From IMG/VR virus record IMGVR_UViG_2778261498_000008, positions 1 through 33,311 of that record: a DNA stretch of 33,311 nucleotides. The stretch is one strand, 5' to 3'. The translations under genes were made by a program, and so were the position numbers. The notes beneath the pieces were generated by a model. That model was not told the origin of the DNA, did not search any database, and was given only the letters and a program-made list of their open reading frames with translations. The DNA is from a virus. Its lineage: Duplodnaviria; Heunggongvirae; Uroviricota; Caudoviricetes. This document shows positions 4,716-33,311 of this stretch, one piece after another (position 1 is the first letter of the stretch; every line of letters starts with the position of its first letter).

Positions 4716-4810
4716 GTATGCCGTTCTCACAAAAAAACCGCTTGCCATGCCGCAATCAGTCAGGTTACATTTCCGCTGCACCTCATAAAACGGGTGCCGG
4801 GATTTCCACC

Positions 4811-12188: not shown

Positions 12189-13235
12189 TCAGGATGTGGG
12201 CTGGGTATCTAACAGTGCGTAAGGGTTAAAGCGGATCACCTCTTCGCCAAGCCAGTCATTGATGTGCTTCATGGCCTCCATGACGGGCATCAGCTCGTTA
12301 ATTGCGTAAACCCGCGCGGCCTTCTCCACATCACCAAACGCACTTTTTTCGCCCGGCATCGCCCCCATCAGTTGCGGCGGAACGCGGTGCGCAGCCAGCA
12401 CATCATCACGGGATGCCGCCTTAACATTCATGAACTCATCCTTTGCGGTGATCTGCTGGAACGGCAAAATTTGCACCCCCTCTTTGCCCCCGTTGGGCGC
12501 ATGAATGAGCACGTTTTTAAACGCACCACCACCACGTGCCCCCTGTAGCGTTTCTTTCAGGGAGTCCATGCTTTCGCGGTTTACCTGCGCTGCACCGATG
12601 TAGATGATGCACCCGGCGTGGGATCCGTTGTCGTAGTACAGTTTTCTGAACATGTCCGCCGAATGAGAAAGGCTGGCCGAGAGTAATGCGCCAAGATATT
12701 CCGGCATGCCGTAGATTTCCTGGTTAATATCCGGATTCATCAGGTGGCACACTTTACCAGGGCGAAACTGAAACGCATCCTTGCCATCCTGCACATACCA
12801 CCATGATTCAAGATCGCTTCCGCGTCGCATGTATTTCGCCAGGGCGTGCCGTAATTTAAGCGGTTCGCCGAGCATATTGCTCCGAAGCTCAAGGAATGCG
12901 TTACCGAACACAAACCAGTCCAGCGCCAGCGCCGAGAAATCCTGCCGGGAAAGCAGCGGGTGCGGAATATAGCAGCCGAGCAATACATTGCGCTTAAAGT
13001 AAAGCGCAGACTGATGCCAGGACGTTTGCCGGGCAGCTCTTGCCAGACCGTACCAGTCCACCGGGGTTTCATACCACCGCCCGTTATCAGCACAGTACAT
13101 ATTGTCCAGCAGGTCATGCCCGGTCAGGCGATAAGGACCATCAAATGTGAATGCACTGAGCGATGATTCTTTCCTGAGCGCATCAGCGAGATCAATGCGT
13201 GAACTCATGCGCACTTTTTTATTTTTTCTGCTCAT
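12189..13235 (-). CDS. Q: Portal protein (P2 gpQ family)
   Basis: 348-aa product, leftward operon with the large terminase as in P2; length and position match gpQ. Confidence 0.9.
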   Translation of the reverse strand: MSRKNKKVRMSSRIDLADALRKESSLSAFTFDGPYRLTGHDLLDNMYCADNGRWYETPVDWYGLARAARQTSWHQSALYFKRNVLLGCYIPHPLLSRQDFSALALDWFVFGNAFLELRSNMLGEPLKLRHALAKYMRRGSDLESWWYVQDGKDAFQFRPGKVCHLMNPDINQEIYGMPEYLGALLSASLSHSADMFRKLYYDNGSHAGCIIYIGAAQVNRESMDSLKETLQGARGGGAFKNVLIHAPNGGKEGVQILPFQQITAKDEFMNVKAASRDDVLAAHRVPPQLMGAMPGEKSAFGDVEKAARVYAINELMPVMEAMKHINDWLGEEVIRFNPYALLDTQPTS

Positions 13236-14986
13236 CAGAACTCCATAACCGTGAAACGCTCGTTTTCTCCTTCGCCGCCAATCGGTTCATTAATGACAGC
13301 AAGCATGGTTGCCCACGCAAGGTCGCCGTGGCTGATCCCCCTCGCTCGGTCCGTTTCGTAAGTGATAAAGCCGCCCGGTGTTTTCACCTTACGTACGGCG
13401 TTAAAGGCCGCGACCAGCTCGCGTTCGGCACGATCGTATTCCCACCGCCCGGCACGCATTATTTGCAGCATTTTCAGTACCAGCGACCGTTTTGATGACA
13501 GCGTGAAGGTGTACGGAATAGCAGCAGGGAAAAACCGTTTCACTATCTGATAAACGGCATCCCCGTGCCCGCCAGTCGCATCAATGCCGATGTGTTCCAC
13601 GTTGTAGCGACACGTGAACTCTTCAATGACTCTGGCCTGTTCTTCAAACTCCAGCCCCTGAACGCGTCGCGTCTCCACCGTTCGAAAACGGCCACCAGGA
13701 ACAGCCGGAGGAACCACCACGGACACCGCGCCGCTGTCGCCGTTTCCACTGCTGCCGTTTGCGTCATACCCAATCCATACCGGACGATTCCCCATCGGGC
13801 GGGGAGCAAAAGGTTTCCAGTCTTTCCAGTCGTCGTATCCGTCAACACCGCAGCCAATCAGGATATTCAGGTTAAATGCCGATTCCCCTTCGCGGACAAA
13901 CTCACACATATAGAGATTGCGGAACTCGTCTTCGGTGTTTTCATCACGAATTTCATCAATATCGGTGTGTTTCCAGCCGTGATTAACCACATCTTCCAGC
14001 GTGACAATTTGCCGCCACGTCCGGTCGGGGCAGATAAGTCCGTTATGCAGCGTTTTCCAGTCCACAGAAAAACGCTGGCGTTTATGCGCGGCCTTTTTCT
14101 CGTTCCAGCGGTCGCCGTTCCAATAGACGTATGCCTCGTGCGTTTCGGTGGATGGCGTGGAGAAGTAGGTGCGCCGCAGTCCGCTGAGGGTTGCCATAGC
14201 GCCAGCCACCTTGCGCAGTTCAGCAAAGCGACTGACCCAGAAAAATTCATCAAAATAAAAATTGCCTGTGTAGGACTGTGCCGTCGCAGCAGAAGTACCG
14301 AGAAAATGCAGTTCTGCGCCGTTGGAGAGGATGATTTTATCGCCCCCTTTCAGCTCCACATCAACTTCAGCCGCGGCCTTCTGAATAATGCTTTTAAACT
14401 GGAACGCCTGACGACGCGACGCAGACAAAAAAATCTGGTTACGCTGGTAAGGTTGTGCCACATCGTCACGCAGCGCCATCAGCAGTGCTTCCTGTGCAAA
14501 ATACCAGGTCGCCCCAATCTGTCGGGATTTCAGGATCATCCTGTTACGTATCCCGGCTTCACTGCAAAGGGTCAGGGAGTCAAACCAGCCCCGCTGATGC
14601 CACTCCAGCCTGCTGATGATTTTTTCCCGCAGTGCGGCAATCTGCTCCGGCGTGAAATGATTTTTAAGTTTTTTCGCCCGGCCTTTCTTTCCTGTGGCCG
14701 TCGCATCCGGCTGGCCATCATGCAGTTTTTTAAGCTGCCGGGTCAGCAGGTCTATTTCCTTAAAGTCACCACCTGTTTTATTCTGTTTTTCAGTAAGCTG
14801 GATGAGGCGCGCATCGATGGACTGCGTGACACGCTGCACGGGTGGCGTTTCATCCCACTGGTCGCGTTTTTTCCACGCATAAATCGTGTTCGGGTTTATT
14901 CCCATCAGACGTGATATTTCTGCGGGCGGATAACCCTGCCAGTAAAGTTGCCGCGCACGCTGGCGCACAAAAGCGTCCTGAATCAT
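13235..14986 (-). CDS. P: Terminase large subunit / ATPase (P2 gpP family)
   Basis: 583-aa product upstream of the portal on the same strand; length and position match P2 gpP. Confidence 0.9.
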   Translation of the reverse strand: MIQDAFVRQRARQLYWQGYPPAEISRLMGINPNTIYAWKKRDQWDETPPVQRVTQSIDARLIQLTEKQNKTGGDFKEIDLLTRQLKKLHDGQPDATATGKKGRAKKLKNHFTPEQIAALREKIISRLEWHQRGWFDSLTLCSEAGIRNRMILKSRQIGATWYFAQEALLMALRDDVAQPYQRNQIFLSASRRQAFQFKSIIQKAAAEVDVELKGGDKIILSNGAELHFLGTSAATAQSYTGNFYFDEFFWVSRFAELRKVAGAMATLSGLRRTYFSTPSTETHEAYVYWNGDRWNEKKAAHKRQRFSVDWKTLHNGLICPDRTWRQIVTLEDVVNHGWKHTDIDEIRDENTEDEFRNLYMCEFVREGESAFNLNILIGCGVDGYDDWKDWKPFAPRPMGNRPVWIGYDANGSSGNGDSGAVSVVVPPAVPGGRFRTVETRRVQGLEFEEQARVIEEFTCRYNVEHIGIDATGGHGDAVYQIVKRFFPAAIPYTFTLSSKRSLVLKMLQIMRAGRWEYDRAERELVAAFNAVRKVKTPGGFITYETDRARGISHGDLAWATMLAVINEPIGGEGENERFTVMEF

Positions 14987-15140
14987 TGCTCCCCCTGAGT
15001 AATTACAGGAAGATTACCCGCGCGCGAAACCGTTCTCCTTAACCCCCTGTTCTGGCCGTTTCCTTACAACAAAAGACCTTTGTATCAGCCTGTTACGCTT
15101 TGCCATCATGACTGAAGAACCAGTCAGAGGGGCAAAAACT

Positions 15141-19410: not shown

Positions 19411-19814
19411 AGCTCTGGCCCACGCTGGGCGTCGCTTTCCTTCTGATTGCCGCATGGGGAACATCCATGCGTCTGTCGTGGTCGCTGGGCCGGGAGAACG
19501 CCAGAAACGAAGCGCAGGCCAGCGCCCTGAAAAGTACCGCCGACACCCTGAATATCATCAGCACCGGGGTACAGGATATGCAGCAGGTGCTGGCGCAACT
19601 CCGCGTGGAAAATCAACAGCGAAATCAGGACGGAGAGGCCAGACGTGAACAGCTACGCAACGATATTGCAAAAGATGAATGCGCCCACGCTTTGCCTGAC
19701 GCTCGTTTTACTGACAGGTTGCGCAGGCACGCAGAACGCGCCACGGCCAGCGCCGTCAGTCCGGCTTATACCGCAGACGCTGACCATACCAGTAATGCCT
19801 CCCCCCTTCCCTGA
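19407..19814 (+). CDS. Inner-membrane spanin component (Rz/LysB-like)
   Basis: N-terminal TM helix (MKLWPTLGVAFLLIAAW) followed by a charged coiled-coil-like region; overlapped in another frame by the o-spanin. Confidence 0.55.
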   Translation: MKLWPTLGVAFLLIAAWGTSMRLSWSLGRENARNEAQASALKSTADTLNIISTGVQDMQQVLAQLRVENQQRNQDGEARREQLRNDIAKDECAHALPDARFTDRLRRHAERATASAVSPAYTADADHTSNASPLP

Positions 19815-19965: not shown

Positions 19966-20419
19966 TTCCCTGCGTGAAGCCATGACCCGTTCATGCCGAT
20001 GGTGTCAGGCCAACCCGGAAAAATTCACCATTTTCGTGGAGAGCGGCAACATTGAAACGACCGGAGAAACGCCCTCGTTTGTTTACCGCTATCAGATGGT
20101 GATGTTTGTCATGGATTACGCCGGGGAGCTGGACGACCTCACGCTGCCGCTACTGGCGTGGTTATCCGAAAATCAGCCACAGTTGTTGCTCAATCCGGAG
20201 CGTAATCAGGACATCAAATTCTCCGCCGTTATCAATGACGATGACAGCGCCGATCTCCTGTTTACGCTCCCTCTGCAGGAACGCGTTCGCATCACGCGCA
20301 GCAGTCAGGGCACGCCGCAGGCAGAACACCTGCCGGAGCCAAAACCCCGCCTGCCATCTTCCGAAGGCGACTGGTCGCATGTATTCCAGGATGTGACGTG
20401 GGGTGAAAGCGATGGATAA
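19952..20419 (+). CDS. R: Tail completion protein (P2 gpR family)
   Basis: MLKTDSLREAMT N-terminus and LLAWLSENQP block match P2 gpR as recalled. Confidence 0.8.
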   Translation: MLKTDSLREAMTRSCRWCQANPEKFTIFVESGNIETTGETPSFVYRYQMVMFVMDYAGELDDLTLPLLAWLSENQPQLLLNPERNQDIKFSAVINDDDSADLLFTLPLQERVRITRSSQGTPQAEHLPEPKPRLPSSEGDWSHVFQDVTWGESDG

Positions 20420-21047
20420 GGCATTCACCCGCGTGGATGAAACCTTTGAGGCCATCCGCGACAGCCTGAATCAGCAGGCCATCAATAACATCGCCAGAAA
20501 GCTGGCACAGGATTTACGCCGCGCCCAGCAGGCGCGTATCCGGTCACAGAAAGCGCCGGACGGGACCGCGTGGACACCACGCAGACGCCGCGTAACCCGG
20601 ATACAGGAACGCATTCGCTTTATCTGGAATAACGAAGCACGCACGCTGAAAAACTGGCATCACGACACGGGGAAATACGGGCGAACCATTACCGGGTGGG
20701 ATGAGGATAAAAATAATATCCGCACGTTTTACCGGGATGACATCGACCGTTTTCTGGAAATACGCACCCGGCGCATCAACCAGGACAGCACAAAGCGCGT
20801 CCCCATGTTCGTAAAACTGCGCACCGCCCGCTACCTGAAAGCCCGTGCAGATGCTTCCGGTGTGACGGTGGGTTACAGCGGCGTGGCCGCACGTATTGCC
20901 CGCGTTCATCAGTTCGGTGAGCGCGATCAGGTTGCGCCGGGCATTTTCACCGATTACCCGGTACGTGAGCTGTTGGGTATCAGCCAGGCAGATGAGCGCC
21001 TGATTTATAACACGGTGCTGGGCCGGATTGCGGAGGCTGTACGGTGA
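20412..21047 (+). CDS. S: Tail completion / virion morphogenesis protein (P2 gpS family)
   Basis: Follows R with an 8-nt overlap; ATG 20412 (track start 20403 is GTG). Longer than P2 gpS as recalled. Confidence 0.75.
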   Translation: MDKAFTRVDETFEAIRDSLNQQAINNIARKLAQDLRRAQQARIRSQKAPDGTAWTPRRRRVTRIQERIRFIWNNEARTLKNWHHDTGKYGRTITGWDEDKNNIRTFYRDDIDRFLEIRTRRINQDSTKRVPMFVKLRTARYLKARADASGVTVGYSGVAARIARVHQFGERDQVAPGIFTDYPVRELLGISQADERLIYNTVLGRIAEAVR

Positions 21048-21625
21048 GCGCAGAACTCATGCGACTGCTGAGCAATATCATCCGCACCGGGATCATCTCT
21101 GAAGTTGATGAGAAGTCCTGGCGCGTGCGCGTTCGCAGCGGCGAACTGGAAACAGGCTGGCTGCGCTGGAACACCACGCGCGCGGGAGCCTTCAATGTGT
21201 GGCTGCCGCCATCACCAGGCGAACAGGTGGTAATTGCCTGCATTGGCGGCAACCCGGAAACCGCCATGATAATTGGCAGCCTGTGGAGTGATGCCAATCC
21301 GGCACCCGGCAAAAGCCTGAAAGAAATCGTGATCAGCGCGCCGGACGGCGCGGTGTTCCGCTACGACGCGGACGCTGGCGCACTGAGCGCCAGCGGCATG
21401 AAAACGGCCACTTTACAGGCATCCGTCAGCGTGAAACTGGATACGCCCGTCGTGGAATGCACAAACCTTCTGAGAACGGCGACGCTTGACGTCACAAAAG
21501 GAGGAAAGATGAGCGGCAATATCACGCACAGCGGCGGCAACTTCACCTCAAACGGCATTACCGTGCATACGCATAAACACGGTGGCGTGAAAGGCGGCAG
21601 CGATTCGACAGGAGGCCCGCAGTGA
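21044..21625 (+). CDS. V: Baseplate spike protein (P2 gpV family)
   Basis: IIRTGIISEVD and C-terminal GNITHSGGNFTSNGITVHTHKHGG match gpV as recalled. GTG start at 21044; ATG at 21059 is an alternative. Confidence 0.85.
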   Translation: MSAELMRLLSNIIRTGIISEVDEKSWRVRVRSGELETGWLRWNTTRAGAFNVWLPPSPGEQVVIACIGGNPETAMIIGSLWSDANPAPGKSLKEIVISAPDGAVFRYDADAGALSASGMKTATLQASVSVKLDTPVVECTNLLRTATLDVTKGGKMSGNITHSGGNFTSNGITVHTHKHGGVKGGSDSTGGPQ

Positions 21626-23397: not shown

Positions 23398-24762
23398 ATG
23401 AGTACCACGATACGAAAATTTAAAACCATTATCACTGATACTGGTGCCAAAAAATTAGCTCAGGCAGCCGCGCCAGATGGTAAGCCAGTCCGCCTGACAC
23501 ATATGGCCGTGGGCGACGGTGGCGGCACGTTGCCCACACCAGACAGCAAGCAGACCCACCTTGTGCATGAGGTGTGGAGACATACCGTTAATCGCATCAC
23601 CCAGGACACAACACATCAGAACCGCATTATTGCGGAGCTGGTTATTCCCCCTGAAACGGGCGGATTCTGGATCCGGGAAATTGGTGTATTTGATGAGCAC
23701 GGCGATTTGATCGCGGTGGGCAATACTGCCGAAAGTTACAAGCCAACCGTTGCCGAAGGGTCCGGACGTGCACAAACATTCCGCATAATTCTGTCCATAT
23801 CCACTGCAGCAATAGTGGAACTGACGATAGACAAAAGCACAGCGATGGCCTCCATGGATTACGTGGATGAAGCAATCAAAGAACACGAAAAATCCCGTAA
23901 TCACCCTGACGCAACCCTGTCAGAAAAAGGTTTTGTCAGACTTAGTAATGATACTGACAGTGACAGCGAGACAGAAGCCGCAACCCCTGCCGCTATAAAG
24001 AAGGCTATAAAAATTGCAAGTGAAAAATTTACCGTACAGGACGCAACCACAACACAAAAAGGTATTGTTCAGTTAAGTAACGATACTGACAGTGAAAGCG
24101 AAACAGAAGCTGCAACTCCCAAAGCAGTCAAGGCTGCATATGACCTGGCCGACGGGAAATATACTGCGCAGGATGCCACCACGACACAAAAAGGTATTGT
24201 TCAGTTAAGTAGCGATACTGACAGTGAAAGCGAAACGGAAGCTGCCACACCAAAGGCGGTTAAGGCGATTAAAGCTGCTCTTGATAAAAAACAACCACTG
24301 AATGACATGCTGACGGCACTAAGTAAATTAATGCCTGCCGGAAATGCATTTCCGTATTTTGACGCGGATAAAAAGATTAGTCTGGCAAGCATTTCAGAAA
24401 TTGCCAGACAGTTTATTTCGCTCGATACACTCTATTCCATGCAGGAATTTCTGGTGACGCCTGATCTAATAGCAAGGCGAATCAGATCGCATAGTGCGAC
24501 CTTTGAACCTGATGTTGGTAATGTATTTCTTGCCGCATATATGAGGCCAGCAGATGATTTCACTATGACAGCCCGTGGCCGCATGGTAGATGGTCGTTAT
24601 TTAAGGGATATTAATATTGAATTAAAGCCCGACATGAAAACGCTGATATTTAATGTTGATGATATTGGTACAAGCTCATTCCCTGGCAGTTACGCTGCAC
24701 TGTACGGATATATAGGTGCAATAACCGGATACGAAATTGGCCTCTTTATCAGATTCGCATAA
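23398..24762 (+). CDS. H: Tail fibre protein (P2 gpH-like N-terminus, fibre repeats, divergent C-terminal domain)
   Basis: Conserved N-terminal baseplate-attachment region, three tandem copies of the phage tail-fibre repeat (QKGIVQLSxDTDSESETEAATPKAVK), then an AT-rich distinct C-terminal domain. 454 aa, shorter than P2 gpH as recalled. Confidence 0.85.
   Translation: MSTTIRKFKTIITDTGAKKLAQAAAPDGKPVRLTHMAVGDGGGTLPTPDSKQTHLVHEVWRHTVNRITQDTTHQNRIIAELVIPPETGGFWIREIGVFDEHGDLIAVGNTAESYKPTVAEGSGRAQTFRIILSISTAAIVELTIDKSTAMASMDYVDEAIKEHEKSRNHPDATLSEKGFVRLSNDTDSDSETEAATPAAIKKAIKIASEKFTVQDATTTQKGIVQLSNDTDSESETEAATPKAVKAAYDLADGKYTAQDATTTQKGIVQLSSDTDSESETEAATPKAVKAIKAALDKKQPLNDMLTALSKLMPAGNAFPYFDADKKISLASISEIARQFISLDTLYSMQEFLVTPDLIARRIRSHSATFEPDVGNVFLAAYMRPADDFTMTARGRMVDGRYLRDINIELKPDMKTLIFNVDDIGTSSFPGSYAALYGYIGAITGYEIGLFIRFA
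23923..24300 (+). repeat. Three tandem ~132-bp (44-codon) repeats inside the tail-fibre gene
   Basis: Units begin at about 23923, 24055 and 24187 with near-identical DNA (ggtattgttcagttaagt...gatactgacagtgaaagcgaaac). Confidence 0.7.
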
Positions 24763-24782: not shown

Positions 24783-25358
24783 ATGAATATTTTGTCAATT
24801 AAAAATCCGGTTTACATATCTCATGACGCGATCAGTTGTCAGGTGTTGTTTGAAGGGGAAACAGAGTTTATCCCATACACCGCAACCGCCACAGATACCG
24901 CAGCAACAGGCCGGGCCGTCTGGCAGGCGCTTCAGGATGGCCTTGCCGGAGAAATTGCACCGTTTGTGATGACAGAAGCGCAGCTGGAGCGCATCCGTCA
25001 GAGTAAGCATGATGAAATCAGTCGCTGGCGTGATGACCAGGAAAACGCCGGAATTATTTTTGAGTGGAATGGCCACCGCTGGGACGGTGGAAAAATTTCA
25101 CGAAGCCGCCTGGCACCGGTGATTGCTGTGGCACAGGCGGGTGCGCTTCCGGCGGGCTTTTTCTGGACTGACGCGGATAACCAGGACGTCACCCTCACGC
25201 CGGAAGAGCTGGTACAGCTGGACGCTGCCATGTTGCAGGCGATGGTTATCCGTGGTTTTCAGATACACGAACGCCAGCGGCAGATGAAAGAGGACGTGGC
25301 AGGACTGGACAGTGCCGACGCCGTTCGCCGTTATGTTGTGGGATGGGGCGATGAGTAA
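24783..25358 (+). CDS. Putative tail fibre assembly chaperone (gpG position)
   Basis: 191-aa ORF immediately downstream of the fibre gene; assigned by position and size; no sequence motif verified. Confidence 0.6.
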   Translation: MNILSIKNPVYISHDAISCQVLFEGETEFIPYTATATDTAATGRAVWQALQDGLAGEIAPFVMTEAQLERIRQSKHDEISRWRDDQENAGIIFEWNGHRWDGGKISRSRLAPVIAVAQAGALPAGFFWTDADNQDVTLTPEELVQLDAAMLQAMVIRGFQIHERQRQMKEDVAGLDSADAVRRYVVGWGDE

Positions 25359-25728
25359 ATTCACCACTCCTGCCGTGCTGGAAATGCTCGATGATTACCG
25401 CTGGCGACTGGTTGAGCCGTTTGAGTTCTGGCTGACGGATAACCCCGTGGATGTGATTGCGGTTCCTGCGGGGTATGTCACAGACCTTGCCAGCGTACCG
25501 CGCATTCTCTGGTCGGTATTTCCGCCACACGGTCGTTACGCCAAAGCGGCGATTATTCACGACTGGCTGTACGACAACGCGCTGCGGACAAAGCACGAAG
25601 CGGACAAGATATTTCTTGATGCGATGTGTGTACTGGGTGTTCCCCGCTGGCGCAGGATGCTGATGTATTGTGCGGTCAGATTGTTCGGACGGGGAAATTA
25701 CTTTCGGGAAAAAATTACCCACCTCTGA
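25351..25728 (+). CDS. DUF1353-like hypothetical protein at the Z/fun position
   Basis: 125-aa ORF overlapping the stop of the preceding gene; between the fibre module and the tail block where P2 carries Z/fun. Family assignment is from memory and weak. Confidence 0.5.
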   Translation: MSKFTTPAVLEMLDDYRWRLVEPFEFWLTDNPVDVIAVPAGYVTDLASVPRILWSVFPPHGRYAKAAIIHDWLYDNALRTKHEADKIFLDAMCVLGVPRWRRMLMYCAVRLFGRGNYFREKITHL

Positions 25729-25778
25729 AACTGAGATATAAAATGATTTTATATCAACAGGTTATTATGTGTGACAAT

Positions 25779-25801
25779 AAAGCGCGGATATACCGCGCTT
25801 T
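25779..25801. terminator. Perfect 9-bp hairpin AAAGCGCGG-atata-CCGCGCTTT between convergent genes
   Basis: Read directly; lies between the DUF1353-like gene (+) and gpU (-), flanked by A/T runs, so likely a bidirectional terminator. Confidence 0.55.
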
Positions 25802-25812
25802 CCAGTAATAAA

Positions 25813-26307
25813 TTAAAAAAAACCTTTTATCGCACCGGAGACACCATTCATAGCTGATGAAGCCCCACTCTTAAACCTGCTCAACATATCACTGAACGAT
25901 GAGGATTGCAGGCGTTCGCGCATGTCCTCATCACAGCGTTGCAGCGTCAGTGAAAATTCTATCTTTTTCGCCTTACCGTAGCGGTCAAATTCAGAGCGCG
26001 TAATATTCTGGCCGGTCAGAACATACATACCGTAGATTTGCCCAACACCATCAATCAGGGGCCACGGAAGCCCGGTATAGGCCTGCGTGGTTAACAGTGT
26101 AAGGGACACCTCACCGCCCGTAATTTCAGGGTAAAGCACACCGGAAAGCGTGATCTGATCTTCCCCTGCCCCGATATACTGCCAGCTTGCTGAACGGTTT
26201 ATCCGCTCATTCTTCACATGCCGCCAGCTCCTGCTCTGCTGCAACTGCTGATGAGGCAGCGTGCGCAGCTCAAAAACAAACATGCCGTAGATCATCATCA
26301 TGGTCAT
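25813..26307 (-). CDS. U: Tail protein U (P2 gpU family)
   Basis: ATG at 26305-26307 (MTMMMIYGMFVFE...), 7 nt downstream of the tape-measure stop on the same strand. The track ORF extends upstream over T in another frame and was trimmed. Confidence 0.8.
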   Translation of the reverse strand: MTMMMIYGMFVFELRTLPHQQLQQSRSWRHVKNERINRSASWQYIGAGEDQITLSGVLYPEITGGEVSLTLLTTQAYTGLPWPLIDGVGQIYGMYVLTGQNITRSEFDRYGKAKKIEFSLTLQRCDEDMRERLQSSSFSDMLSRFKSGASSAMNGVSGAIKGFF

Positions 26308-26314
26308 GACTCCT

Positions 26315-29134
26315 TTAATCTTTATCGTAGAAGCTACTACGTCCGGCACGCTCCCGGCGTTCCATTTCTGCCCTGACAGCCTCGCCAACCAACTTTGCCA
26401 GTTCGCGGGGTGTCTGTGTGACAACGTTATGAAGGTGAACATGAATTTCACCGCCAAATCTGGCTGGCTCCTGGCGGCGTGCATCTCCGCCACCGGATGG
26501 CACAACAGGGCGCCGGATGGCTTCTGCCACCTGTCCTGTCCCTGCGGCAACAACGGGCGGCAACGCCGGGGGTGGTGTAACGGTAACGGCTTGCGGAATG
26601 CTGACTGCCGGTGTGGCTTTACTGAGCCGCTCAACCTGACGTTCACGCCATTCACCACGAACGGCCAGCGCACGGGGCAGGTTCTTAAAGACAATATCGC
26701 CGGGACCGATGCGTTTTTTAGCGTCCTTTGCTTCATTCAGCAGGCCACCGGTGTTATCGGCAATTTTGCCAAGCCTGCGCATGGTTCCGGTATTGCCATC
26801 CGTAAGCGGTTTGTTGTCTTTGGGTTTATCGTCTTTTTTGTCGCCGGGTTTATCTGACGGGGCCGGGCTGGGAGTCCATGGTTTCTGAACCATTTTCTTG
26901 AGAGCAGGATCCCATTCCCACATCACAGGAGCCTTTGAAGCGTCCTCCATTTTTTTTCTCGCCCGCTCCGCTTCATCCGGAAGCACGCCCAGCTTCTCCA
27001 GTATCCATCCCAGCGTATCCAGCAACATTTTCGCAGGCGTCAGCACAAGCTCCAGCGCACCGCCAAGAACCCTGCCGAATACTTCGCCGGCACTGGTGCA
27101 TTGATCCAGTGTTTCCTTGCTGGATTCCATCGGTGACAGCAGTGACATGAACCAGTTAAACACCTGGCTGATACCACTGCCGATCATGTCGAAAATGGGG
27201 CTGAACTGTTCAAAGGTTTCACGCAGCGGGGTCAGCCGCTCCATAATTCCGCTGAACACCCCGGCAAAAAATGCCTTAATCGGGTCCCAGTATTTCCAGA
27301 TAAGAACAGCCGCAGCCACAAGAGCCGCCGCAATCAGGCCCACCGGACTGAACAACGCCCCGAGAGCACCACCCAGCAGGGAGACGGAGCCTGTCACCAT
27401 ACCCCACAGTGCAGGCAGCACCCGGACAACGTTCATGGAGCTGGTCAGAAGAGAAAAGCCCAGACGCAACGTGGCCAGCTTCCCGTAAAGCACGCCGATA
27501 ACCAGCGACAGGGAGCCCACCGTTGCCGTTGTTGCCAGCAGTGCACCGCCTGCGATCAGTAACTGGCGGGTGAGTGCCGGATGTGCCTGCGCCAGCGCTG
27601 TTACCTTTGCGACCACCCGCGTGAGCCACTGTGTGGCAGAACGCAGCGGCCCGTCAACCAGATCGGCAATGCGAATACGCAGCCCTTCCCATGCGCTGCC
27701 AAGTGATTTCAGGTCGCCGTCAAGGTTGTCAGCCATGACCTTTGCCGTGCGCTCTGCTTCACCACGTGCAGCTTCCAGTTCTTTTCTCAGTTTGGGTAAG
27801 GAGCCGTTACCCGCCGCGTCAACGAGGGCCATAAATGATGTGAAGGCCTCTTCCCCGGCGATATCCTTAAAGAACGATACCCGGTCAACTTCCCCGTATT
27901 TGCGGGTGGCTTTATAAAGGTCGGACAGCACATCCTCCATCGGGCGCATTTTGCCGTTCGCATCGGAGACAGATACCCCAAGCTCTTTCAGCGCCTCTGC
28001 TGCTGCCTTTGGAGGTGATGCCAGGCGGGAAAGGCTGGCACGCATCGCCGTCCCTGCATCGCTCCCCCTGATCCCCATATTCGCCAGCACGCCCGCCATC
28101 GCGGCAGCCTGTTCCAGCGATATCCCCAGCTTGCCCGCCACCGGCCCCGCGTATTTCATGGTTTCCCCCAGCGCGCGGAGGTCGGTATTGGTACGGGTGA
28201 ACGCGGCGGTAAGGGTATCGCCGACCCGATCCATCTGGTCAGCAGAAAGACCAAACTGCGTGAGAATATTTGAACCAATATCGGCAGTTTCGCCGAGGTC
28301 CATGCCGCTGGCCGTTGCCATGTTCAGCACACCAGGTAGCGCCGCCTGAATGGCCTCCGGCGTGAAGCCCGCCATGGCAAGAAATGCCTGACCACTGGCG
28401 GCATCGCCTGCGGTGAACTGCGTTTCAGAGCCGAGTTTTAACGCCTGTTCGCGCAGCGCCTTAAACTGCGGGCTGGTTTTGTCGATACGCGTCAGCGCCT
28501 GCACACGCGACATCTCTTTCCCGAACCCGATGGCGGGCTGCAGAAAGCGTCCGGCAGCATAGCCGCCGGCCACAGCGGCACCGACAGCCATCGCGCCGCC
28601 GGTTTTCAGTTTTCCGGCGGTTTCCTGCGCCCGTGAATAACGTTCACGCGCCTGCGTGACACGGGTCAGCGCCTGCCGTTCACGTTCAAGCTGATTGTTG
28701 TATTGTTCGGTGCGCCGGATAGCCTGCTGGATGGTGTTGTCGCTGCCCGTCAGGGAAATGCCATGGCGCTTCAGCTCTGCACCCAGCTCGCGCATTTTTT
28801 CTATTTCACGCGTGCGGGTTTCATTCAGGCGTTCAAGTCGGGTGCTTAACTGCTGCATCAGCTTTTGTTGTTTTTCGCTGAGCACTGTACCCGTGCGTTG
28901 TAACTGATTAAGGGCGTTAAGCTGGCGTCGTGCTTTCACGATGCCCGCATCCGCTTTACTGACAGCGTCACGGGCGCGCTCAAATGAACGCGCCTGACGC
29001 TCGAGATTTTTGATCGCCCCCTGCGTTCGCTGGATGGCGTCACCAAACTGCCCCATCAGGCGGCGGGCGTTTTCGGTAGGCCGGGTCAGCCTGTCAACAG
29101 CACTGAAAGCGACCCGGATATCAAGAGTCTTCAT
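26315..29134 (-). CDS. T: Tail tape measure protein (P2 gpT family)
   Basis: About 940 aa, Ala/Gly-rich with hydrophobic central segments, downstream of E/E'. ATG at 29132-29134 chosen; the track start at 29179 is a TTG. Confidence 0.85.
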   Translation of the reverse strand: MKTLDIRVAFSAVDRLTRPTENARRLMGQFGDAIQRTQGAIKNLERQARSFERARDAVSKADAGIVKARRQLNALNQLQRTGTVLSEKQQKLMQQLSTRLERLNETRTREIEKMRELGAELKRHGISLTGSDNTIQQAIRRTEQYNNQLERERQALTRVTQARERYSRAQETAGKLKTGGAMAVGAAVAGGYAAGRFLQPAIGFGKEMSRVQALTRIDKTSPQFKALREQALKLGSETQFTAGDAASGQAFLAMAGFTPEAIQAALPGVLNMATASGMDLGETADIGSNILTQFGLSADQMDRVGDTLTAAFTRTNTDLRALGETMKYAGPVAGKLGISLEQAAAMAGVLANMGIRGSDAGTAMRASLSRLASPPKAAAEALKELGVSVSDANGKMRPMEDVLSDLYKATRKYGEVDRVSFFKDIAGEEAFTSFMALVDAAGNGSLPKLRKELEAARGEAERTAKVMADNLDGDLKSLGSAWEGLRIRIADLVDGPLRSATQWLTRVVAKVTALAQAHPALTRQLLIAGGALLATTATVGSLSLVIGVLYGKLATLRLGFSLLTSSMNVVRVLPALWGMVTGSVSLLGGALGALFSPVGLIAAALVAAAVLIWKYWDPIKAFFAGVFSGIMERLTPLRETFEQFSPIFDMIGSGISQVFNWFMSLLSPMESSKETLDQCTSAGEVFGRVLGGALELVLTPAKMLLDTLGWILEKLGVLPDEAERARKKMEDASKAPVMWEWDPALKKMVQKPWTPSPAPSDKPGDKKDDKPKDNKPLTDGNTGTMRRLGKIADNTGGLLNEAKDAKKRIGPGDIVFKNLPRALAVRGEWRERQVERLSKATPAVSIPQAVTVTPPPALPPVVAAGTGQVAEAIRRPVVPSGGGDARRQEPARFGGEIHVHLHNVVTQTPRELAKLVGEAVRAEMERRERAGRSSFYDKD

Positions 29135-29659
29135 TGTCGGTATTCCCGCTACGAAGTGCCGCCCGCTCACGCCAGGCAACCACTTCGCCGGGGGACATCA
29201 TGAAGATTTCGGCGGGCGACCAGTTAAAAACAACGGCGATATCTGCCACAAGATCTTCGATGTGCTCAAAGCACACCAGGCTGATTACGCTGCCGTCTCC
29301 TGCGCGCTCTTCCCGCCAGAGTCCGGCTCGCTCATAAAATTTACGGCCACTGCACACAACTGGATAAAGTCGCGTGACGACATTTTTTTAAGCGTCACTT
29401 CATCCAGTCGCGGCGACGTCACGCGGGGCAACAGCGTGAACATGGCATCCGTTTTCAGATTCAGCACGTCAGTCAGTGACAGACCGCGCAGGGAACCAGC
29501 CTGCTCAATCGCCCCGGTGATTTCCACGTACGTGATTTTTTCACCGCCACGCTCAACCGGACGGAGCAGTTTTACGCCACGTTCAGCGGCTGCATCCTCA
29601 CCGGTCGCCACATCATCCGCCACGCTGTTATCACGGGTTTCAGTATCGGTGTTTTTCAT
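29121..29659 (-). CDS. E+E' fusion made by programmed -1 frameshift at an A7 run (plus-strand T7 at 29383-29389)
   Basis: The -1 frame is open from the A7 run to a stop at 29121-29123; in-frame reading is CTT AAA AAA ATG. Matches the conserved chaperone frameshift of P2-like tail operons. Confidence 0.55.
29285..29659 (-). CDS. E: Tail assembly chaperone E (P2 gpE family)
   Basis: 124-aa ORF with AGGAGA SD, between tube and tape-measure genes. Confidence 0.8.
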   Translation of the reverse strand: MKNTDTETRDNSVADDVATGEDAAAERGVKLLRPVERGGEKITYVEITGAIEQAGSLRGLSLTDVLNLKTDAMFTLLPRVTSPRLDEVTLKKMSSRDFIQLCAVAVNFMSEPDSGGKSAQETAA

Positions 29660-29713
29660 GGAGGTCTCCTTTTCAGTCAGAGGCGACGCACTGCGCCGCC
29701 TGCATATTACTTA

Positions 29714-30226
29714 TCAGCCAAGCCCGAGCGCGGAACGGATGCGATCGGGCACAATGTCCCTGCCGTCCTTGCGGTAAATGAAGTTCAGCAGGTCGATTTC
29801 CCAGACCGGACGATCGTCAACGCTCATCTTGTAGTAGGTGTTTTTGATGGTGTACGTGTGCGAGGTGGCTTCCCCCTGTTTGGCCTCCCCCGTATCAATT
29901 TCCGTCACACGTCCGCGCATCTCAACCTCATACAGTTCGCTTTCGTCGTCGGTGTAGTATTCACCGACAAAACGCAGCAGCGTCCCGTCAATGGTTCCGC
30001 CGTATTTGAGAAACAGGGCACGCACGGCGCCGCCCATCACAAAGCTGGCATCAAGTGCAGAATCGTCCAGACCGAGGTCGATACTGACCGCCCCCATCAT
30101 GCCACCGCCACGAAAACTCTCAGTCTTGCGCGTCAGTTTTGGCAAAGTGACAGACGTCACCTTACCCACTTCATTCTCGCCATCCACAAACAGCGTAAAA
30201 AAGCGAAGATTTTTTGGTACAGCCAT
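29714..30226 (-). CDS. FII: Tail tube protein (P2 gpFII family)
   Basis: 170-aa product with VTLPKLTRK and GRVTEIDTGEAKQGE blocks matching gpFII as recalled. Confidence 0.85.
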   Translation of the reverse strand: MAVPKNLRFFTLFVDGENEVGKVTSVTLPKLTRKTESFRGGGMMGAVSIDLGLDDSALDASFVMGGAVRALFLKYGGTIDGTLLRFVGEYYTDDESELYEVEMRGRVTEIDTGEAKQGEATSHTYTIKNTYYKMSVDDRPVWEIDLLNFIYRKDGRDIVPDRIRSALGLG

Positions 30227-31410
30227 TAAGCACCTCCCAGCACCGCAAAGGCAGGGCCAAAGAATTCATCTGTAAACGTCTGGTAAAGCTCCATGTCTTC
30301 CAGTGGCGGAGCGGGCGTGTATTTGTAGCGAATACGCACACGTCCCTGACGTAAATTCGTGGTGCCGTTATCCACCACGTCATACCAGCACTCCGCACCA
30401 ATCAGTTTCCCGGCAGTAACCAGCGAATCCAGTTTTGCCCTGATGGCGCTGATAACATCCTTCACGTTCGCAGGTGTCAGTGGACTGTCGATGGTTTCAA
30501 ACTGCGCTTCCGCAATTGAATCAGCCAGCACCTGTGCGGTTCGGGTATACACCTCAAAGATGTAGGCGTTCGTTTCCGGTGTGCGGTTGCCCCAGAAGCG
30601 GAACCCGTTGCGACGAATAATGGTCGTGATTTCTTTGTTGTTGAGGCTGTTGGCATCGCTGTCTTCGGCCTGCAACGACCAGAACACATGCCTGGACATC
30701 CCCAGCACATTTTTAACCGGAACGTTGGACAGCGATTTGTGCCAGCCCTGTTCATGGTCAATGTACGCACGAAGGCCGCACGCATAGGCAGGCGCGGGGA
30801 ACGTTTCGTTTTCGCCACTTTTCGGGTTGTAGGCGATGAAGTCCGGCCATAAGAGCATCACTTCACGTTCGTTGAATTTCTGGCGGTAGGTAATCGCTTC
30901 AGCCATCGTGTTACAGCCGTGACATGAGGCATACACAAATGCGCGCAGTTTACCCGCAATCACGCACAGGGATTTTGTCACCGCCTCCGTGTCCAGCTCC
31001 GGCGCGGCCAGAATACGCGGACGGTATCCGATGCTTTCATCCTGCTCTGCAACAAGCAGCGCATACATCCCCGTATAGCTGCCGTCATCCTCAGAACCAC
31101 CGATAACCAGTTGATCCTGCGTCTTTTCGTCTTCTTCTTTGTGTTCAGCCACGCGAACGACGATCACCTTTGTGCTCACCTGGTCTGCGATGGCCTTAAG
31201 CGCACGATAAAGCGTCCCCGTTGTTCCGCATTTTCCCAGCACGTCATTGACGCGGGTCAGCAGTGTGGGCTTGTTCAGCGGGAACAGCTTCGCGTCCGCA
31301 TCATCCGCCGTTGCCACGATACCGATAACGCTGGAATCAACATCGTTAATCGCTGTTACCAGGTCGGTATTTTCCGTAACACGGGCACCATGAAAACGAG
31401 TTTCACTCAT
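30226..31410 (-). CDS. FI: Tail sheath protein (P2 gpFI family)
   Basis: 394-aa product, length and position as gpFI; stop overlaps the FII start. Confidence 0.9.
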   Translation of the reverse strand: MSETRFHGARVTENTDLVTAINDVDSSVIGIVATADDADAKLFPLNKPTLLTRVNDVLGKCGTTGTLYRALKAIADQVSTKVIVVRVAEHKEEDEKTQDQLVIGGSEDDGSYTGMYALLVAEQDESIGYRPRILAAPELDTEAVTKSLCVIAGKLRAFVYASCHGCNTMAEAITYRQKFNEREVMLLWPDFIAYNPKSGENETFPAPAYACGLRAYIDHEQGWHKSLSNVPVKNVLGMSRHVFWSLQAEDSDANSLNNKEITTIIRRNGFRFWGNRTPETNAYIFEVYTRTAQVLADSIAEAQFETIDSPLTPANVKDVISAIRAKLDSLVTAGKLIGAECWYDVVDNGTTNLRQGRVRIRYKYTPAPPLEDMELYQTFTDEFFGPAFAVLGGA

Positions 31411-31567
31411 AGCTTCAGCCCCTTGTATCCGTTAAATGATTCGGCAACAATCATCACCCACCACGCGCGTAATCTCACCCCTGCGCCGTTCTCCCGCCAC
31501 GGCGACAACAAAAAGCAGTAACCCCCTCCGCACGCACATGCGACCATGCCACACAGGGAGGGAGCAG

Positions 31568-32677
31568 ATGACCGACACCACCATGCAATTGCTCAGTCAA
31601 GGCACAGACCCTGTAAAAATGCCGGATTTTGATATTCTCGCGGAGGGTAAAACGCTGTCAGGCGTGGCAGAGCGCCTGATGAGCCTGTCGCTGACCGACA
31701 ACCGGGGATTTGAGGCAGACCAGCTCACCATCACGCTGGATGATGCGGATGGTCAGTTGCAGCTACCGCCACGGGGCGCGCGCCTGAAGGTTCTCATTGG
31801 CTGGAAAGGCGAACCGCTGACAGAAAAAGGCACTTACATTGTTGATGAAATCGCTCACGAAGGACCGCCGGACAGGCTGACTGTTTCGGCCAGAAGCGCA
31901 GATTTTCGGGATGAATTTAACGTTAAACGTGAGGTGTCCTGGCATGATGTGACCGTTGAGCGTGTGGTATCCGCCATCGCTCATCGGTATGGTCTGAAAC
32001 CGCAAATCAGCGAAATGCTGATGGATATCGAAATCGACCACGCCGACCAGACCGAAGAAAGCGACATGTCCTTCCTTACGCGCATGGCGGAAATGCTGGG
32101 CGCAATCACCACGGTAAAAAGCGGCAATCTGTTATTCATCATGCCAGGTGGTGGCGTGAACGCACAGGGCCAGCCGTTGCCCTCGTTCGCCATTACACGC
32201 AGCAGCGGCGATCGCCATCAGTTCCGTATTGCTGACCGCGAGGCTTATACGGGGGTACGCGCCTACTGGCTTGATCTTAATTACGGGAAAAAGAAAAAAG
32301 TCAGCGTAAAACGCCGTAAACCGCCAAAACCCAAAAAGGAGAAAAGCAGCAGCCGTGAAGGTGATTATATGGAAGGCGCGGAAGGCAATGTGTTTGTGTT
32401 ACGCAAGACTTATCAGAACGAGCAGGCAGCAAGACGCGCAGCGGCGGCAAAGTGGCAGCAACTACAACGCGGAGCCGCAGCGTTCTCCATCACGCTGGCG
32501 CGTGGACGTGCAGAACTCTACCCCGAAATGCATGGCACGGTAACAGGATTTAAAAGCGAGATTGATAATCAGGACTGGATTATTGCAAAAGCGGAGCACT
32601 CTATTGATAACAGTGGCTTTACCACGCAGCTTGAGCTTGAAGCAAAAATCCCGGAATGGATAGCAGAAACAGAGTGA
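31568..32677 (+). CDS. D: Tail protein D (P2 gpD family)
   Basis: 369-aa product from ATG 31568 with GGGAGGGAG SD, directly upstream of ogr. Confidence 0.8.
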   Translation: MTDTTMQLLSQGTDPVKMPDFDILAEGKTLSGVAERLMSLSLTDNRGFEADQLTITLDDADGQLQLPPRGARLKVLIGWKGEPLTEKGTYIVDEIAHEGPPDRLTVSARSADFRDEFNVKREVSWHDVTVERVVSAIAHRYGLKPQISEMLMDIEIDHADQTEESDMSFLTRMAEMLGAITTVKSGNLLFIMPGGGVNAQGQPLPSFAITRSSGDRHQFRIADREAYTGVRAYWLDLNYGKKKKVSVKRRKPPKPKKEKSSSREGDYMEGAEGNVFVLRKTYQNEQAARRAAAAKWQQLQRGAAAFSITLARGRAELYPEMHGTVTGFKSEIDNQDWIIAKAEHSIDNSGFTTQLELEAKIPEWIAETE

Positions 32678-32719
32678 GCAACTTAGAATAGCGGCAGCAC
32701 CACGTTAAGGGAGGTCGCT

Positions 32720-32980
32720 ATGTTCCGTTGTCCGCTTTGTGGCGCATCTGCCCGTATCCGCACCAGTCGTCCGGAAAATGATTCAAACACCGTGCGGCAA
32801 AAGTATTACCAGTGTAACAATCTGGAATGCGGCGTATGCTTCTCAACACTGGAAGCTTTCCATAAATTCACATCGAAACATGCCTCCGGCGTTCACTCTT
32901 CAGAAGGTATCCCGTGGCATGAGCTGCCAGCTTCACACAGGGGAAACAATCAGATGAGCTTGCCTTTATCTCAGAATTAA
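32720..32980 (+). CDS. ogr: Late-gene transcriptional activator, Ogr/Delta zinc-finger family
   Basis: MFRCPLCG...YYQCNNLECG has the CxxC...CxxxxC arrangement and matches P2 Ogr as recalled (MFHCPLC...YHQCQNVNC). Carries a C-terminal extension to 86 aa. Confidence 0.8.
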   Translation: MFRCPLCGASARIRTSRPENDSNTVRQKYYQCNNLECGVCFSTLEAFHKFTSKHASGVHSSEGIPWHELPASHRGNNQMSLPLSQN

Positions 32981-33040: not shown

Positions 33041-33304
33041 ATGGTCGGAGGGAATACCCGAAGGCCGGATGTGGAAAGGCCCCGGAAAACATTTCTGTTT
33101 AACCGAGGCCCTAACCGCATTACCTTGACAAGTGAAAGGTTAGCGCCTCTCCGGAAAAGGAGCAAGTGCTATGTCGCAAAAATCGCTTACGGCCATCACG
33201 TTCTGCGTGACGGCAATCCTCATCATCTGGATGCTGCATGGTTCGCTGTGCGAAATACGGATGAGCTTCTGGGGAGCGGAGTTTGCGGCGTTCTTACAGT
33301 GTAA
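33041..33304 (+). CDS. Candidate mok-like overlapping reading frame
   Basis: ORF that starts upstream of the hok-like gene and overlaps it in another frame, ending 7 nt before the hok stop, as in hok/mok/sok loci. The true start is unknown. Confidence 0.35.
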   Translation: MVGGNTRRPDVERPRKTFLFNRGPNRITLTSERLAPLRKRSKCYVAKIAYGHHVLRDGNPHHLDAAWFAVRNTDELLGSGVCGVLTV

Positions 33305-33311
33305 GCAGTAA
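33171..33311 (+). CDS. hok: Hok/Gef-family type I toxin (46 aa)
   Basis: MSQKSLTAITFCVTAILIIWMLHGSLCEIRMSFWGAEFAAFLQCKQ has a single TM helix followed by the SLCEIR and E(F/V)AAF signature of Hok/Gef peptides. The stop codon is the last three bases of the window. Confidence 0.8.
   Translation: MSQKSLTAITFCVTAILIIWMLHGSLCEIRMSFWGAEFAAFLQCKQ

What the first reader, a model, noticed from the sequence alone, without database searches (positions are those of the whole stretch)
25729..31567. Sheath/tube/E/tape-measure/U block is inverted relative to the P2 gene order, leaving D with ogr
As I recall P2, FI-FII-E-T-U-D are transcribed in the same direction as V-W-J-I-H-G and ogr. Here FI to U lie on the minus strand, converging on the fibre module at a hairpin terminator (25779-25801) and diverging from D-ogr across a 157-bp spacer (31411-31567). 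This implies a separate promoter for D and a rearranged late-operon structure.
Basis: partly seen in the sequence, partly recalled or inferred. Interest (0 to 1): 0.5.

Follow-up and report, generated by a model that had tools for sequence, protein, structure and literature searches.

The report
Inverted tail-gene block, normal for P88-like prophages
The sheath-to-U tail genes of this P2-like prophage really do run opposite to P2, but this is the fixed, inherited layout of a large known group of enterobacterial P2-like phages (P88 and relatives), so it is ordinary.

Summary
FI, FII, E, T and U (25813-31410) lie on the minus strand. The fibre genes, D (31568-32677) and ogr (32720-32980) lie on the plus strand. 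In P2 all of these share one strand.

It is not an artefact and not peculiar to this genome.
- The window is collinear with Escherichia phage P88 (genus Xuanwuvirus) along its whole length.
- The same layout is annotated in five ICTV genera of Peduoviridae: Xuanwuvirus, Senquatrovirus, Novemvirus, Reginaelenavirus and Reipivirus.
- The FI|D junction is contiguous in 1109 of 5426 complete E. coli genomes.
- In a scan of species-representative genomes, all 44 loci with FI at least 54% identical have the inverted layout. All 36 with FI at most 51% identical have the P2 layout.

The block is orthologous to P2's F operon, with aa identity to P2 (33-48%) comparable to the head genes (35-47%), so it is one old inversion.

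The 157-bp FI|D spacer holds one Ogr-type dyad (TCT-N12-ACA, 31490-31507). Conserved -10-like hexamers sit symmetrically on both sides, with the same geometry as P2's divergent pP/pO. I infer that one activator site drives both FI-U and D; this has not been shown experimentally.

Low interest.

The parts
23398..24762 (+). Tail fibre gene H. It is near the end of the rightward head/tail operon that converges on U.
   Evidence: Pfam PF12571 and PF03406; 48% aa identity to P2 H over the N-terminal part.
24783..25358 (+). DUF4376 protein, in the position of the fibre-assembly gene G.
   Evidence: Pfam PF14301, E = 3.5e-20. RefSeq annotates the same gene as a DUF4376 domain-containing protein.
25312..25728 (+). 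DUF1353 protein, the last plus-strand gene before the convergence point. P88 has an invertible fibre segment and a DNA invertase at this position instead.
   Evidence: Pfam PF07087, E = 1.1e-32; P88 annotation.
25779..25801 (.). GC-rich hairpin (AAAGCGCGG-loop-CCGCGCTTT) between the convergent DUF1353 and U genes. It is a probable terminator of the FI-U transcript and a weaker one for the plus-strand operon.
   Evidence: Fold of 25729-25812: z = -4.78 (minus strand) and -4.69 (plus strand), with 0 of 200 shuffles folding as well. A comparable hairpin follows U in 5 of 6 genomes compared. Function is inferred.
25813..26304 (-). Tail gene U.
   Evidence: Pfam PF06995, E = 1.5e-38; 48% aa identity to P2 U, 84% to P88.
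26315..29137 (-). Tape-measure gene T.
   Evidence: Pfam PF10145, E = 2.8e-60; 33% aa identity to P2 T, 87% to P88.
29121..29342 (-). Probable E' extension, reached by a -1 frameshift on the heptamer A_AAT_TTT (29342-29336, minus strand). It overlaps the start of T.
   Evidence: Read directly from the sequence. The ORF 29121-29357 is in the -1 frame, and P88 annotates a short 'tail protein' ORF at the same place. The frameshift is inferred by analogy with P2 E/E'.
29285..29659 (-). Tail chaperone gene E.
   Evidence: 37% aa identity to P2 E and 70-86% to P88 and phiSM. No Pfam hit.
29714..30226 (-). Tail tube gene FII.
   Evidence: Pfam PF04985, E = 2.2e-46; 42% aa identity to P2 FII.
30226..31410 (-). 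Tail sheath gene FI.
   Evidence: Pfam PF04984, PF22671 and PF17482; 45% aa identity to P2 FI, 98% to P88.
31411..31567 (.). Divergent FI|D control region, 157 bp.
   Evidence: Sequence. Identical length and near-identical sequence in P88. Conserved blocks across five genera and 40 loci.
31450..31455 (-). Predicted -10 hexamer of the FI promoter pF (GATGAT on the minus strand), 43.5-48.5 nt from the dyad centre.
   Evidence: Conserved columns (GATTAT, GATGAT or GATATT) at the same offset in 40 aligned loci. Inferred; no transcription start site has been mapped.
31490..31507 (.). Ogr-type activator dyad TCT-N12-ACA (centre 31498.5), 88.5 nt from the FI ATG and 69.5 nt from the D ATG.
   Evidence: One such site lies in the FI|D spacer of each of 6 genomes. 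It is present in 39 of 43 distinct inverted loci at 74.5-88.5 nt from the FI ATG, against a mean of 0.6 (max 4) in shuffles. The P2 consensus TGT-N12-ACA is given in PMC3931495.
31539..31547 (+). Predicted extended -10 of a D promoter pD (TGcGACCAT). The hexamer lies 43.5-48.5 nt from the dyad centre.
   Evidence: Conserved 'TG.AA.CAT' columns on the D side in 40 aligned loci. Inferred.
31568..32677 (+). Baseplate hub gene D, separated from the F operon.
   Evidence: Pfam PF05954; 49% aa identity to P2 D, 98% to P88 D.
32720..32980 (+). ogr, the late-gene activator (C4 zinc finger).
   Evidence: Pfam PF04606, E = 5e-14; CX2C-X24-CX4C read from the translation. A TAGAAT -10-like hexamer at 32684-32689 suggests it has its own promoter, as in P2.
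15051..15068 (.). Matching dyad TCT-N12-ACA in the divergent P|O (terminase/scaffold) spacer. This is the only other strong site in the window.
   Evidence: 29.4 and 28.7 bits against at most 15.7 bits elsewhere; the weight matrix was built from these sites, so the ranking is partly circular.

Best explanation
The window is a P88-like (Xuanwuvirus) P2-family prophage. In an ancestor of a large enterobacterial clade of Peduoviridae, one DNA segment was inverted once and fixed. That segment carried the late promoter pF plus FI-FII-E/E'-T-U.

The breakpoints lay upstream of the pF activator site and between U and D. As a result U now converges on the fibre genes at a terminator hairpin, and D lies back-to-back with FI.

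D, the last gene of the F operon in P2, is most likely transcribed from a promoter of its own (pD). I propose that pD shares the single dyad-symmetric Ogr-binding site with pF, in the same way that P2's divergent pP and pO share one site. The site would be centred about 55 nt from each predicted transcription start.

Shown here: gene identities, orientation, orthology, the clade-wide distribution, and the conserved dyad with symmetric -10-like elements. Inferred: Ogr binding, the two transcription starts, the terminator function, and the single ancestral event.
For: Orientation and orthology:
- Pfam identities and the P2 gene map.
- aa identity to P2 is 33-48% for FI-U, against 35-47% for the head genes Q, P, O, N, M, L and 44-58% for the baseplate genes V, W, J, I.
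- Head and tail genes follow the same divergence gradient across Novemvirus, Reginaelenavirus, Reipivirus, Senquatrovirus and P2.

Standard layout:
- The window is collinear with P88.
- Annotated records of five genera show the same order.
- Among the records listed in both searches, every one with FI at least 55% identical has FI and D adjacent on opposite strands.
- The species-genome scan gave 44 of 44 inverted and 36 of 36 collinear loci, split cleanly by FI identity.
- The junction is contiguous in 1109 of 5426 complete E. coli genomes.

Collinear order is ancestral: distant relatives from Ralstonia, Burkholderia, Shewanella and Aeromonas are collinear.

Promoter model:
- Each FI|D spacer and each P|O spacer of six genomes holds one T[GC]T-N12-ACA dyad.
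- 39 of 43 distinct inverted loci carry it 74.5-88.5 nt from the FI ATG, against a shuffle mean of 0.6. In P2 the pF dyad centre lies 82.5 nt from the FI ATG.
- Conserved -10-like hexamers lie 43.5-48.5 nt from the centre on both sides.
- In P2 the annotated pP and pO starts (3016 and 3127) flank one annotated activator site (3057-3087) at about 55 nt each.
- The consensus and the four P2 late operons are given in PMC3931495.
- No plus-strand gene lies upstream of D from which it could be read through.
Against: - No transcription data exist for this phage group, so the promoters, starts and terminator are all predictions.
- The window's left half-site is TCT rather than TGT.
- 4 of 43 distinct loci have only a degenerate dyad.
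- The weight-matrix ranking is circular.
- The D start codons in the 44 loci were extrapolated from tblastn, so the distances from the dyad to D are approximate.
- A single ancestral event is inferred from a clean identity split, not from a rooted phylogeny.
Confidence: 0.8

Rival explanations
1. The dyad serves only pF. D is expressed from an Ogr-independent promoter (for example a plain extended -10 sigma-70 promoter), so D is no longer a strictly late gene.
For: The D-side element TGcGACCAT is an extended -10 type that can work without a -35 element or an activator. A conserved CGCGCGCG box of unknown role lies between the dyad and the -10. No experimental data exist.
Against: The D-side -10 sits at exactly the mirror offset of the FI-side -10 relative to the dyad centre, in 40 loci. 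The same CGCGCG box plus -10 arrangement is found on the P side of the P|O spacer, which is Ogr-dependent in P2. The hexamers are poor matches to TATAAT, as is typical of activator-dependent promoters.
Confidence: 0.15
2. The tail block is a foreign contractile-tail module from a non-P2 source, inserted in the opposite orientation. On this reading it is a replacement, not an inversion.
For: Phage genomes are mosaic, and the region between the fibre genes and U is a cargo hot spot (invertase, DUF262, DUF1353).
Against: FI, FII, E, T and U each find their P2 orthologue as the match, with aa identity comparable to the head genes. Across five genera the block diverges in step with Q, P, O and D. 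The pF dyad keeps the P2 distance to the FI ATG.
Confidence: 0.03
3. The block is a reversible invertible segment, flipped by a site-specific invertase like the Mu G or P1 C segments, and is seen here in one of two states.
For: P88 and phiSM carry a DNA invertase gene immediately next to U.
Against: The window has no invertase gene between the fibre genes and U. There are no inverted repeats at the two junctions; the best pairs are 72-76% matches inside coding sequence. Orientation is fixed in 44 of 44 loci and in 1109 E. coli genomes. In P88 the invertase flanks the duplicated fibre and fibre-assembly genes, which is its usual substrate.
Confidence: 0.01
4. The inversion is an assembly artefact of this record.
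For: None found.
Against: The FI|D junction is contiguous at 95-99.9% identity in 1109 complete E. coli genomes. The DUF1353|U junction is at 99.8-99.9% in 4 complete genomes. Independent phage records of five genera show the same layout.
Confidence: 0.01

Closest known systems
Escherichia phage P88 and other Xuanwuvirus (P884B11, 500465-2, PhiR44_2, Chuche, Citrobacter phage Shae_phiSM)
   Same: Whole-genome collinearity at 88-96% nt identity over about 27 kb. The U-T-E-FII-FI (minus) | D-ogr (plus) layout is identical, and the 157-bp FI|D spacer is the same apart from two bases. FI and D are 98% aa identical.
   Different: P88 has an invertible fibre/fibre-assembly duplicate and a DNA invertase between G and U. 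The window has DUF4376 and DUF1353 genes there instead, with a different hairpin. The integrase is only 49% identical.
Bacteriophage P2 F operon (pF-FI-FII-E/E'-T-U-D, then ogr)
   Same: Orthologous genes in the same internal order (33-49% aa identity). The activator dyad lies about 82 nt upstream of FI. The E/E' frameshift arrangement and ogr downstream of D are also shared.
   Different: In P2 the operon runs in the same direction as V-G and includes D. Here pF through U is inverted, D is detached, and no S/V intergenic region or pV-type site is found.
P2 divergent late promoters pP/pO, which share one activator-binding region
   Same: Two divergent genes flank a single TGT-N12-ACA-type dyad. 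Mapped starts (P2) or predicted starts (window) lie about 55 nt either side of its centre. The window's own P|O spacer has the same dyad.
   Different: The P2 case is experimentally mapped. The FI|D case is a prediction from conservation only.
Senquatrovirus SEN4/5, Novemvirus phiT5282H, Reginaelenavirus 3LV2017, Reipivirus ST16-OXA48phi5.4, Serratia phage KSP20
   Same: The same inverted block with D divergent from FI. The same dyad lies in the spacer of the four complete genomes; KSP20's spacer was not examined.
   Different: FI is 55-76% identical. Cargo between the fibre genes and U differs. SEN5 keeps an S/V intergenic region with a TGT-N12-ACA match, a possible pV.

Membership tests
P2-like phages (Peduoviridae) | Divergent Q-P | O-N-M-L head module with P2-family portal, terminase, scaffold and capsid genes. 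| tested here: met
   tblastn against P2 gives Q 47%, P 44%, O 37%, N 41%, M 38%, L 35%, in P2 order and orientation.
P2-like phages (Peduoviridae) | Contractile-tail genes FI, FII, E, T, U and D, plus baseplate genes V, W, J and I. | tested here: met
   Pfam hits for FI, FII, T, U and D. All of these genes match their P2 orthologues.
P2-like phages (Peduoviridae) | Ogr/Delta-type C4 zinc-finger late activator. | tested here: met
   PF04606, E = 5e-14; CX2C-X24-CX4C in the translation.
Genus Xuanwuvirus (P88-like) | At least about 70% nucleotide identity over the genome length to the type species (the ICTV genus criterion, quoted from my own knowledge). | tested here: met
   blastn against P88 gives four collinear blocks totalling about 27.4 kb of 33.3 kb at 89-96% identity, roughly 77% overall.
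P2-type F operon (single late transcription unit FI through D) | D lies directly downstream of U on the same strand. | tested here: not met
   U is on the minus strand at 25813-26304. D is on the plus strand at 31568-32677, divergent from FI.
Ogr-dependent late promoter | A TGT-N12-ACA dyad centred about 55 nt upstream of the transcription start. | tested here: inconclusive
   The dyad TCT-N12-ACA (a one-base variant) is present, conserved, and correctly spaced relative to the FI ATG and to the -10-like hexamers. Start sites and Ogr dependence cannot be tested with these tools.
Invertase-driven invertible segment (Gin/Cin/Hin type) | A serine invertase gene plus inverted-repeat crossover sites flanking the segment, with both orientations found in nature. 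| tested here: not met
   No invertase gene lies between the fibre genes and U in the window. No junction inverted repeats were found. A single orientation is seen in 44 of 44 loci and in 1109 genomes.

The most novel reading that the evidence does not exclude
The ancestral inversion created a second bidirectional Ogr-dependent control region. One dyad (31490-31507) would activate both pF (FI-U) and a new promoter pD (D, perhaps reading on into ogr). With the pV region absent, the whole late regulon of this clade would then run from just two shared activator sites (P|O and FI|D) rather than P2's three activator-site regions serving four late promoters. As far as I could find, this has not been described for the P88 group.
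Probability: 0.6. Interest if true: 0.3.

Novelty: already known. Interest (0 to 1): 0.15.

Why it matters
It matters little beyond annotation.

- The inverted FI-U block is a reliable structural marker of a widespread enterobacterial Peduoviridae clade. It should not be flagged as a misassembly or a recent rearrangement.
- It is a tidy natural example of operon rewiring. Inverting a promoter-plus-genes cassette next to a dyad-symmetric activator site can immediately supply a promoter for the gene left behind (D).
- If confirmed, this would simplify the late-transcription map for a prophage type carried by about a fifth of complete E. coli genomes.

Tried and rejected
- **Exact TGT-N12-ACA search.** It gave only two matches in the whole window, fewer than chance and neither in a late spacer. 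The sites only appeared after allowing the TCT variant and comparing genera.
- **Generic promoter/terminator scan.** It found nothing above background and missed the 25779-25801 hairpin, because the T-run is short.
- **Inverted repeats at the breakpoints.** None were found. The longest pairs are 72-76% matches inside T, U or D.
- **Literature.** I checked papers on P88, phiSM, SEN4/5, the Serratia PP4/KSP20 prophage, a 2026 survey of P2-like viruses, and Burkholderia P2-like phages. None mentions this inversion. The library is incomplete, so an explicit description may exist elsewhere.
- **Third dyad (pV).** The next-best weight-matrix hit (19472-19501, 15.7 bits) lies inside a lysis-region gene, and I do not consider it convincing.
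- **Rfam.** It found nothing in the block.
- **Not used.** The large protein-database searches and structure prediction were not needed.
Full report
**1. What is in the window**

The 33.3-kb window is a complete P2-family prophage.
- Integrase is at 1-1023 (minus strand).
- The divergent head genes are Q/P (12189-14986, minus) and O-N-M-L (from about 15108, plus).
- Lysis and baseplate genes follow, then the fibre gene H (23398-24762, plus).
- Pfam identifies, on the minus strand, U (25813-26304), T (26315-29137), FII (29714-30226) and FI (30226-31410).
- Pfam identifies, on the plus strand, D (31568-32677) and an Ogr/Delta zinc-finger gene (32720-32980).
- E (29285-29659, minus) has no Pfam hit but is 37% identical to P2 E.
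- A -1 frame ORF reached through the heptamer A_AAT_TTT (29342-29336) gives the expected E' extension, which overlaps the start of T. The frameshift is inferred.

**2.

- The annotated P2 record has V-W-J-I-H-G, FI-FII-E/E'-T-U-D and ogr all on one strand, with D as the last gene of the F operon.
- In a nucleotide comparison with P2, the int, Q and I/H matches are co-oriented, but the FI match is on the opposite strand.
- The hairpin at 25779-25801 is real. It has a 9-bp stem, and the 84-nt spacer folds with z of about -4.7 on both strands, with 0 of 200 shuffles folding as well.
- On the U-sense strand the hairpin is followed by TTTATTGT.
- The FI|D spacer is 157 bp.

**3. It is not an artefact and not specific to this genome**

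- *Nearest relatives.* The tail region is 88-91% identical to Xuanwuvirus phages (P88, P884B11, Shae_phiSM and others). The whole window is collinear with P88, and the P88 and phiSM annotations show the same layout.
- *Other genera.* The layout is also annotated in Senquatrovirus SEN5, Novemvirus phiT5282H, Reginaelenavirus 3LV2017 and Reipivirus ST16-OXA48phi5.4.
- *Phage collection.* I cross-matched tblastn hits for FI and D. Every record listed in both searches with FI at least 55% identical has FI and D adjacent on opposite strands; this includes Serratia KSP20 and many Klebsiella phages. Records with FI at or below about 50% that could be cross-matched (P2 group, ENT90, Ralstonia, Burkholderia, Shewanella, Aeromonas) are collinear.
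- *E. coli genomes.* A 1.2-kb query spanning the FI|D junction is contiguous in 1109 of 5426 complete E. coli genomes.
- *Species genomes.* A scan of one genome per species with an FI alignment returned 80 loci.
  - The 44 loci with FI at least 54% identical to the window all read ogr-D (minus) | FI-FII-T-U (plus) | I-J (minus). One locus (L020) has a rearranged baseplate I hit on the plus strand.
  - These 44 come from Salmonella, Citrobacter, Enterobacter, Klebsiella, Kosakonia, Serratia, Brenneria, Pectobacterium, Erwinia tracheiphila, Providencia, Morganella, Photorhabdus, Xenorhabdus and others.
  - The 36 loci with FI at most 51% identical are all collinear, as in P2.

**4. It is an inversion of orthologous genes, not a foreign module**

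- Identity to P2 is 33-48% for FI-U and 49% for D.
- For comparison, it is 35-47% for the head genes Q, P, O, N, M, L and 44-58% for the baseplate genes V, W, J, I.
- Across the other four genera the tail block, D and the head genes diverge in step.
- Distant relatives are collinear, so the collinear order is ancestral and the inverted order is derived.
- No inverted repeats remain at the junctions.
- The window has no invertase gene between the fibre genes and U. In P88 the invertase flanks the duplicated fibre genes, which is its normal substrate.

**5. How D is probably expressed**

P2 late promoters carry a TGT-N12-ACA activator site (PMC3931495). In the P2 record one annotated site (3057-3087) lies midway between the divergent pP and pO starts (3016 and 3127), about 55 nt from each.

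The dyad:
- The window's FI|D spacer contains one TCT-N12-ACA dyad (31490-31507, centre 31498.5). The P|O spacer contains another (15051-15068) with the same flanks, GTTCT...ACAACAAAA.
- Each of six genomes from five genera has exactly one such dyad in each of the two spacers.
- Among the 44 inverted loci, 39 of 43 distinct upstream regions carry the dyad 74.5-88.5 nt from the FI ATG. Shuffles give a mean of 0.6 and a maximum of 4.
- The exceptions have one-base variants at the same position.
- In P2 the pF dyad centre lies 82.5 nt from the FI ATG. So pF travelled with the block.

The flanking -10 elements, seen when 40 loci are aligned on the dyad:
- On the FI side, a conserved -10-like hexamer lies 43.5-48.5 nt from the centre (window: GATGAT, complement of 31450-31455).
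- On the D side, a conserved TG.AA.CAT lies at the mirror offset (window: TGcGACCAT, 31539-47).
- The D side continues with a ribosome-binding site, and in the window and many of the aligned loci the ATG lies 68.5-69.5 nt from the centre.

I therefore predict starts near 31443 (minus strand, pF) and near 31554 (plus strand, pD) that share one Ogr site. All of this is inference from conservation and from analogy with P2; no transcript data were available.

Further points on late transcription:
- No other strong dyad exists in the window (this ranking is partly circular).
- S and V overlap, so a separate pV seems absent here.
- SEN5 retains an S/V gap with a TGT-N12-ACA match.
- ogr probably keeps its own promoter, with TAGAAT at 32684-32689, as in P2.

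**6. The convergent end**

- A GC-rich hairpin follows the U stop codon in 5 of 6 genomes compared, although the sequences differ.
- The DNA between the fibre genes and U is a cargo site. It holds an invertase plus spare fibre genes in P88, DUF262 and other genes in ST16-OXA48phi5.4, and DUF4376 and DUF1353 in the window.
- The exact DUF1353|U junction occurs in only 4 complete E. coli genomes.

**7. Verdict**

I found no paper that comments on the inversion, but it is plain in many deposited annotations.

The only mildly new element is the predicted shared pF/pD activator site. Interest is low.

Noticed in passing
window 24783-25728: The fibre-accessory genes here (DUF4376 and DUF1353) replace P88's invertible fibre segment and invertase. 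The same two genes occur at 92-96% identity on E. coli plasmids of about 95-100 kb and in another chromosome, which suggests exchange of this module between P2-like prophages and plasmid-borne phage-like elements.
   Followed up: partly
window 4778-4975: Rfam finds a C4 antisense RNA (4888-4975, 77 bits) and isrK (4778-4852, 63 bits) in the early region. This is a P1/P7-type c4-ant style immunity element inside a P2-like prophage. P88 annotates a 'derepression protein' just downstream.
   Followed up: no
window 33172-33311: A hok/gef-type small toxin ORF (MSQKSLTAITFCVTAILIIWMLHGSLCEIRMSFWGAEFAAFLQCKQ) lies at the right end of the prophage. This stretch matches many Stx-converting phages at about 83% identity, and P88 annotates it as MokW-like.
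   Followed up: no
window 20403-21047 / 21044-21625: S and V overlap with no intergenic region, and no Ogr-type dyad is found there. The P2 promoter pV therefore seems absent, and O through the fibre genes may be one transcription unit of about 10.6 kb. SEN5 keeps an S/V gap with a TGT-N12-ACA match.
   Followed up: partly
window 15108 vs 15141: The first ATG of the scaffold gene O (15108) lies before the predicted pO start (about 15115). P88 annotates the start 33 nt further down, behind an AGAGGGG ribosome-binding site, so the real O start is probably 15141.
   Followed up: partly
L002 (OR565851, Shae_phiSM); L004/L009 (SEN5): Public annotation errors. In Shae_phiSM the sheath gene is labelled 'late control gene D protein' and D is labelled 'ogr'. 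In SEN5 a 120-nt ORF on the wrong strand is noted as ogr, while the true ogr homologue is on the D strand at about 22048.
   Followed up: partly
L011 (NZ_JBQPOM010000071.1): A 226-kb contig labelled Vagococcus sp. (a Firmicute) carries a Xuanwuvirus prophage with FI 97% identical to the window. This is probably contamination or a mislabelled assembly.
   Followed up: no
window 31520-31540 and 15017-15026; aligned loci: A conserved CGCGCGCG box lies between the activator dyad and the -10 element on the D side of the FI|D spacer and on the P side of the P|O spacer, across genera. P2's pF has no such box, and its role is unknown.
   Followed up: no
window 8630-9589: The ORF corresponds to P88's annotated ParM-like plasmid segregation protein and is followed by a partition-protein gene. 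Partition functions are unusual cargo for an integrating P2-like prophage.
   Followed up: no
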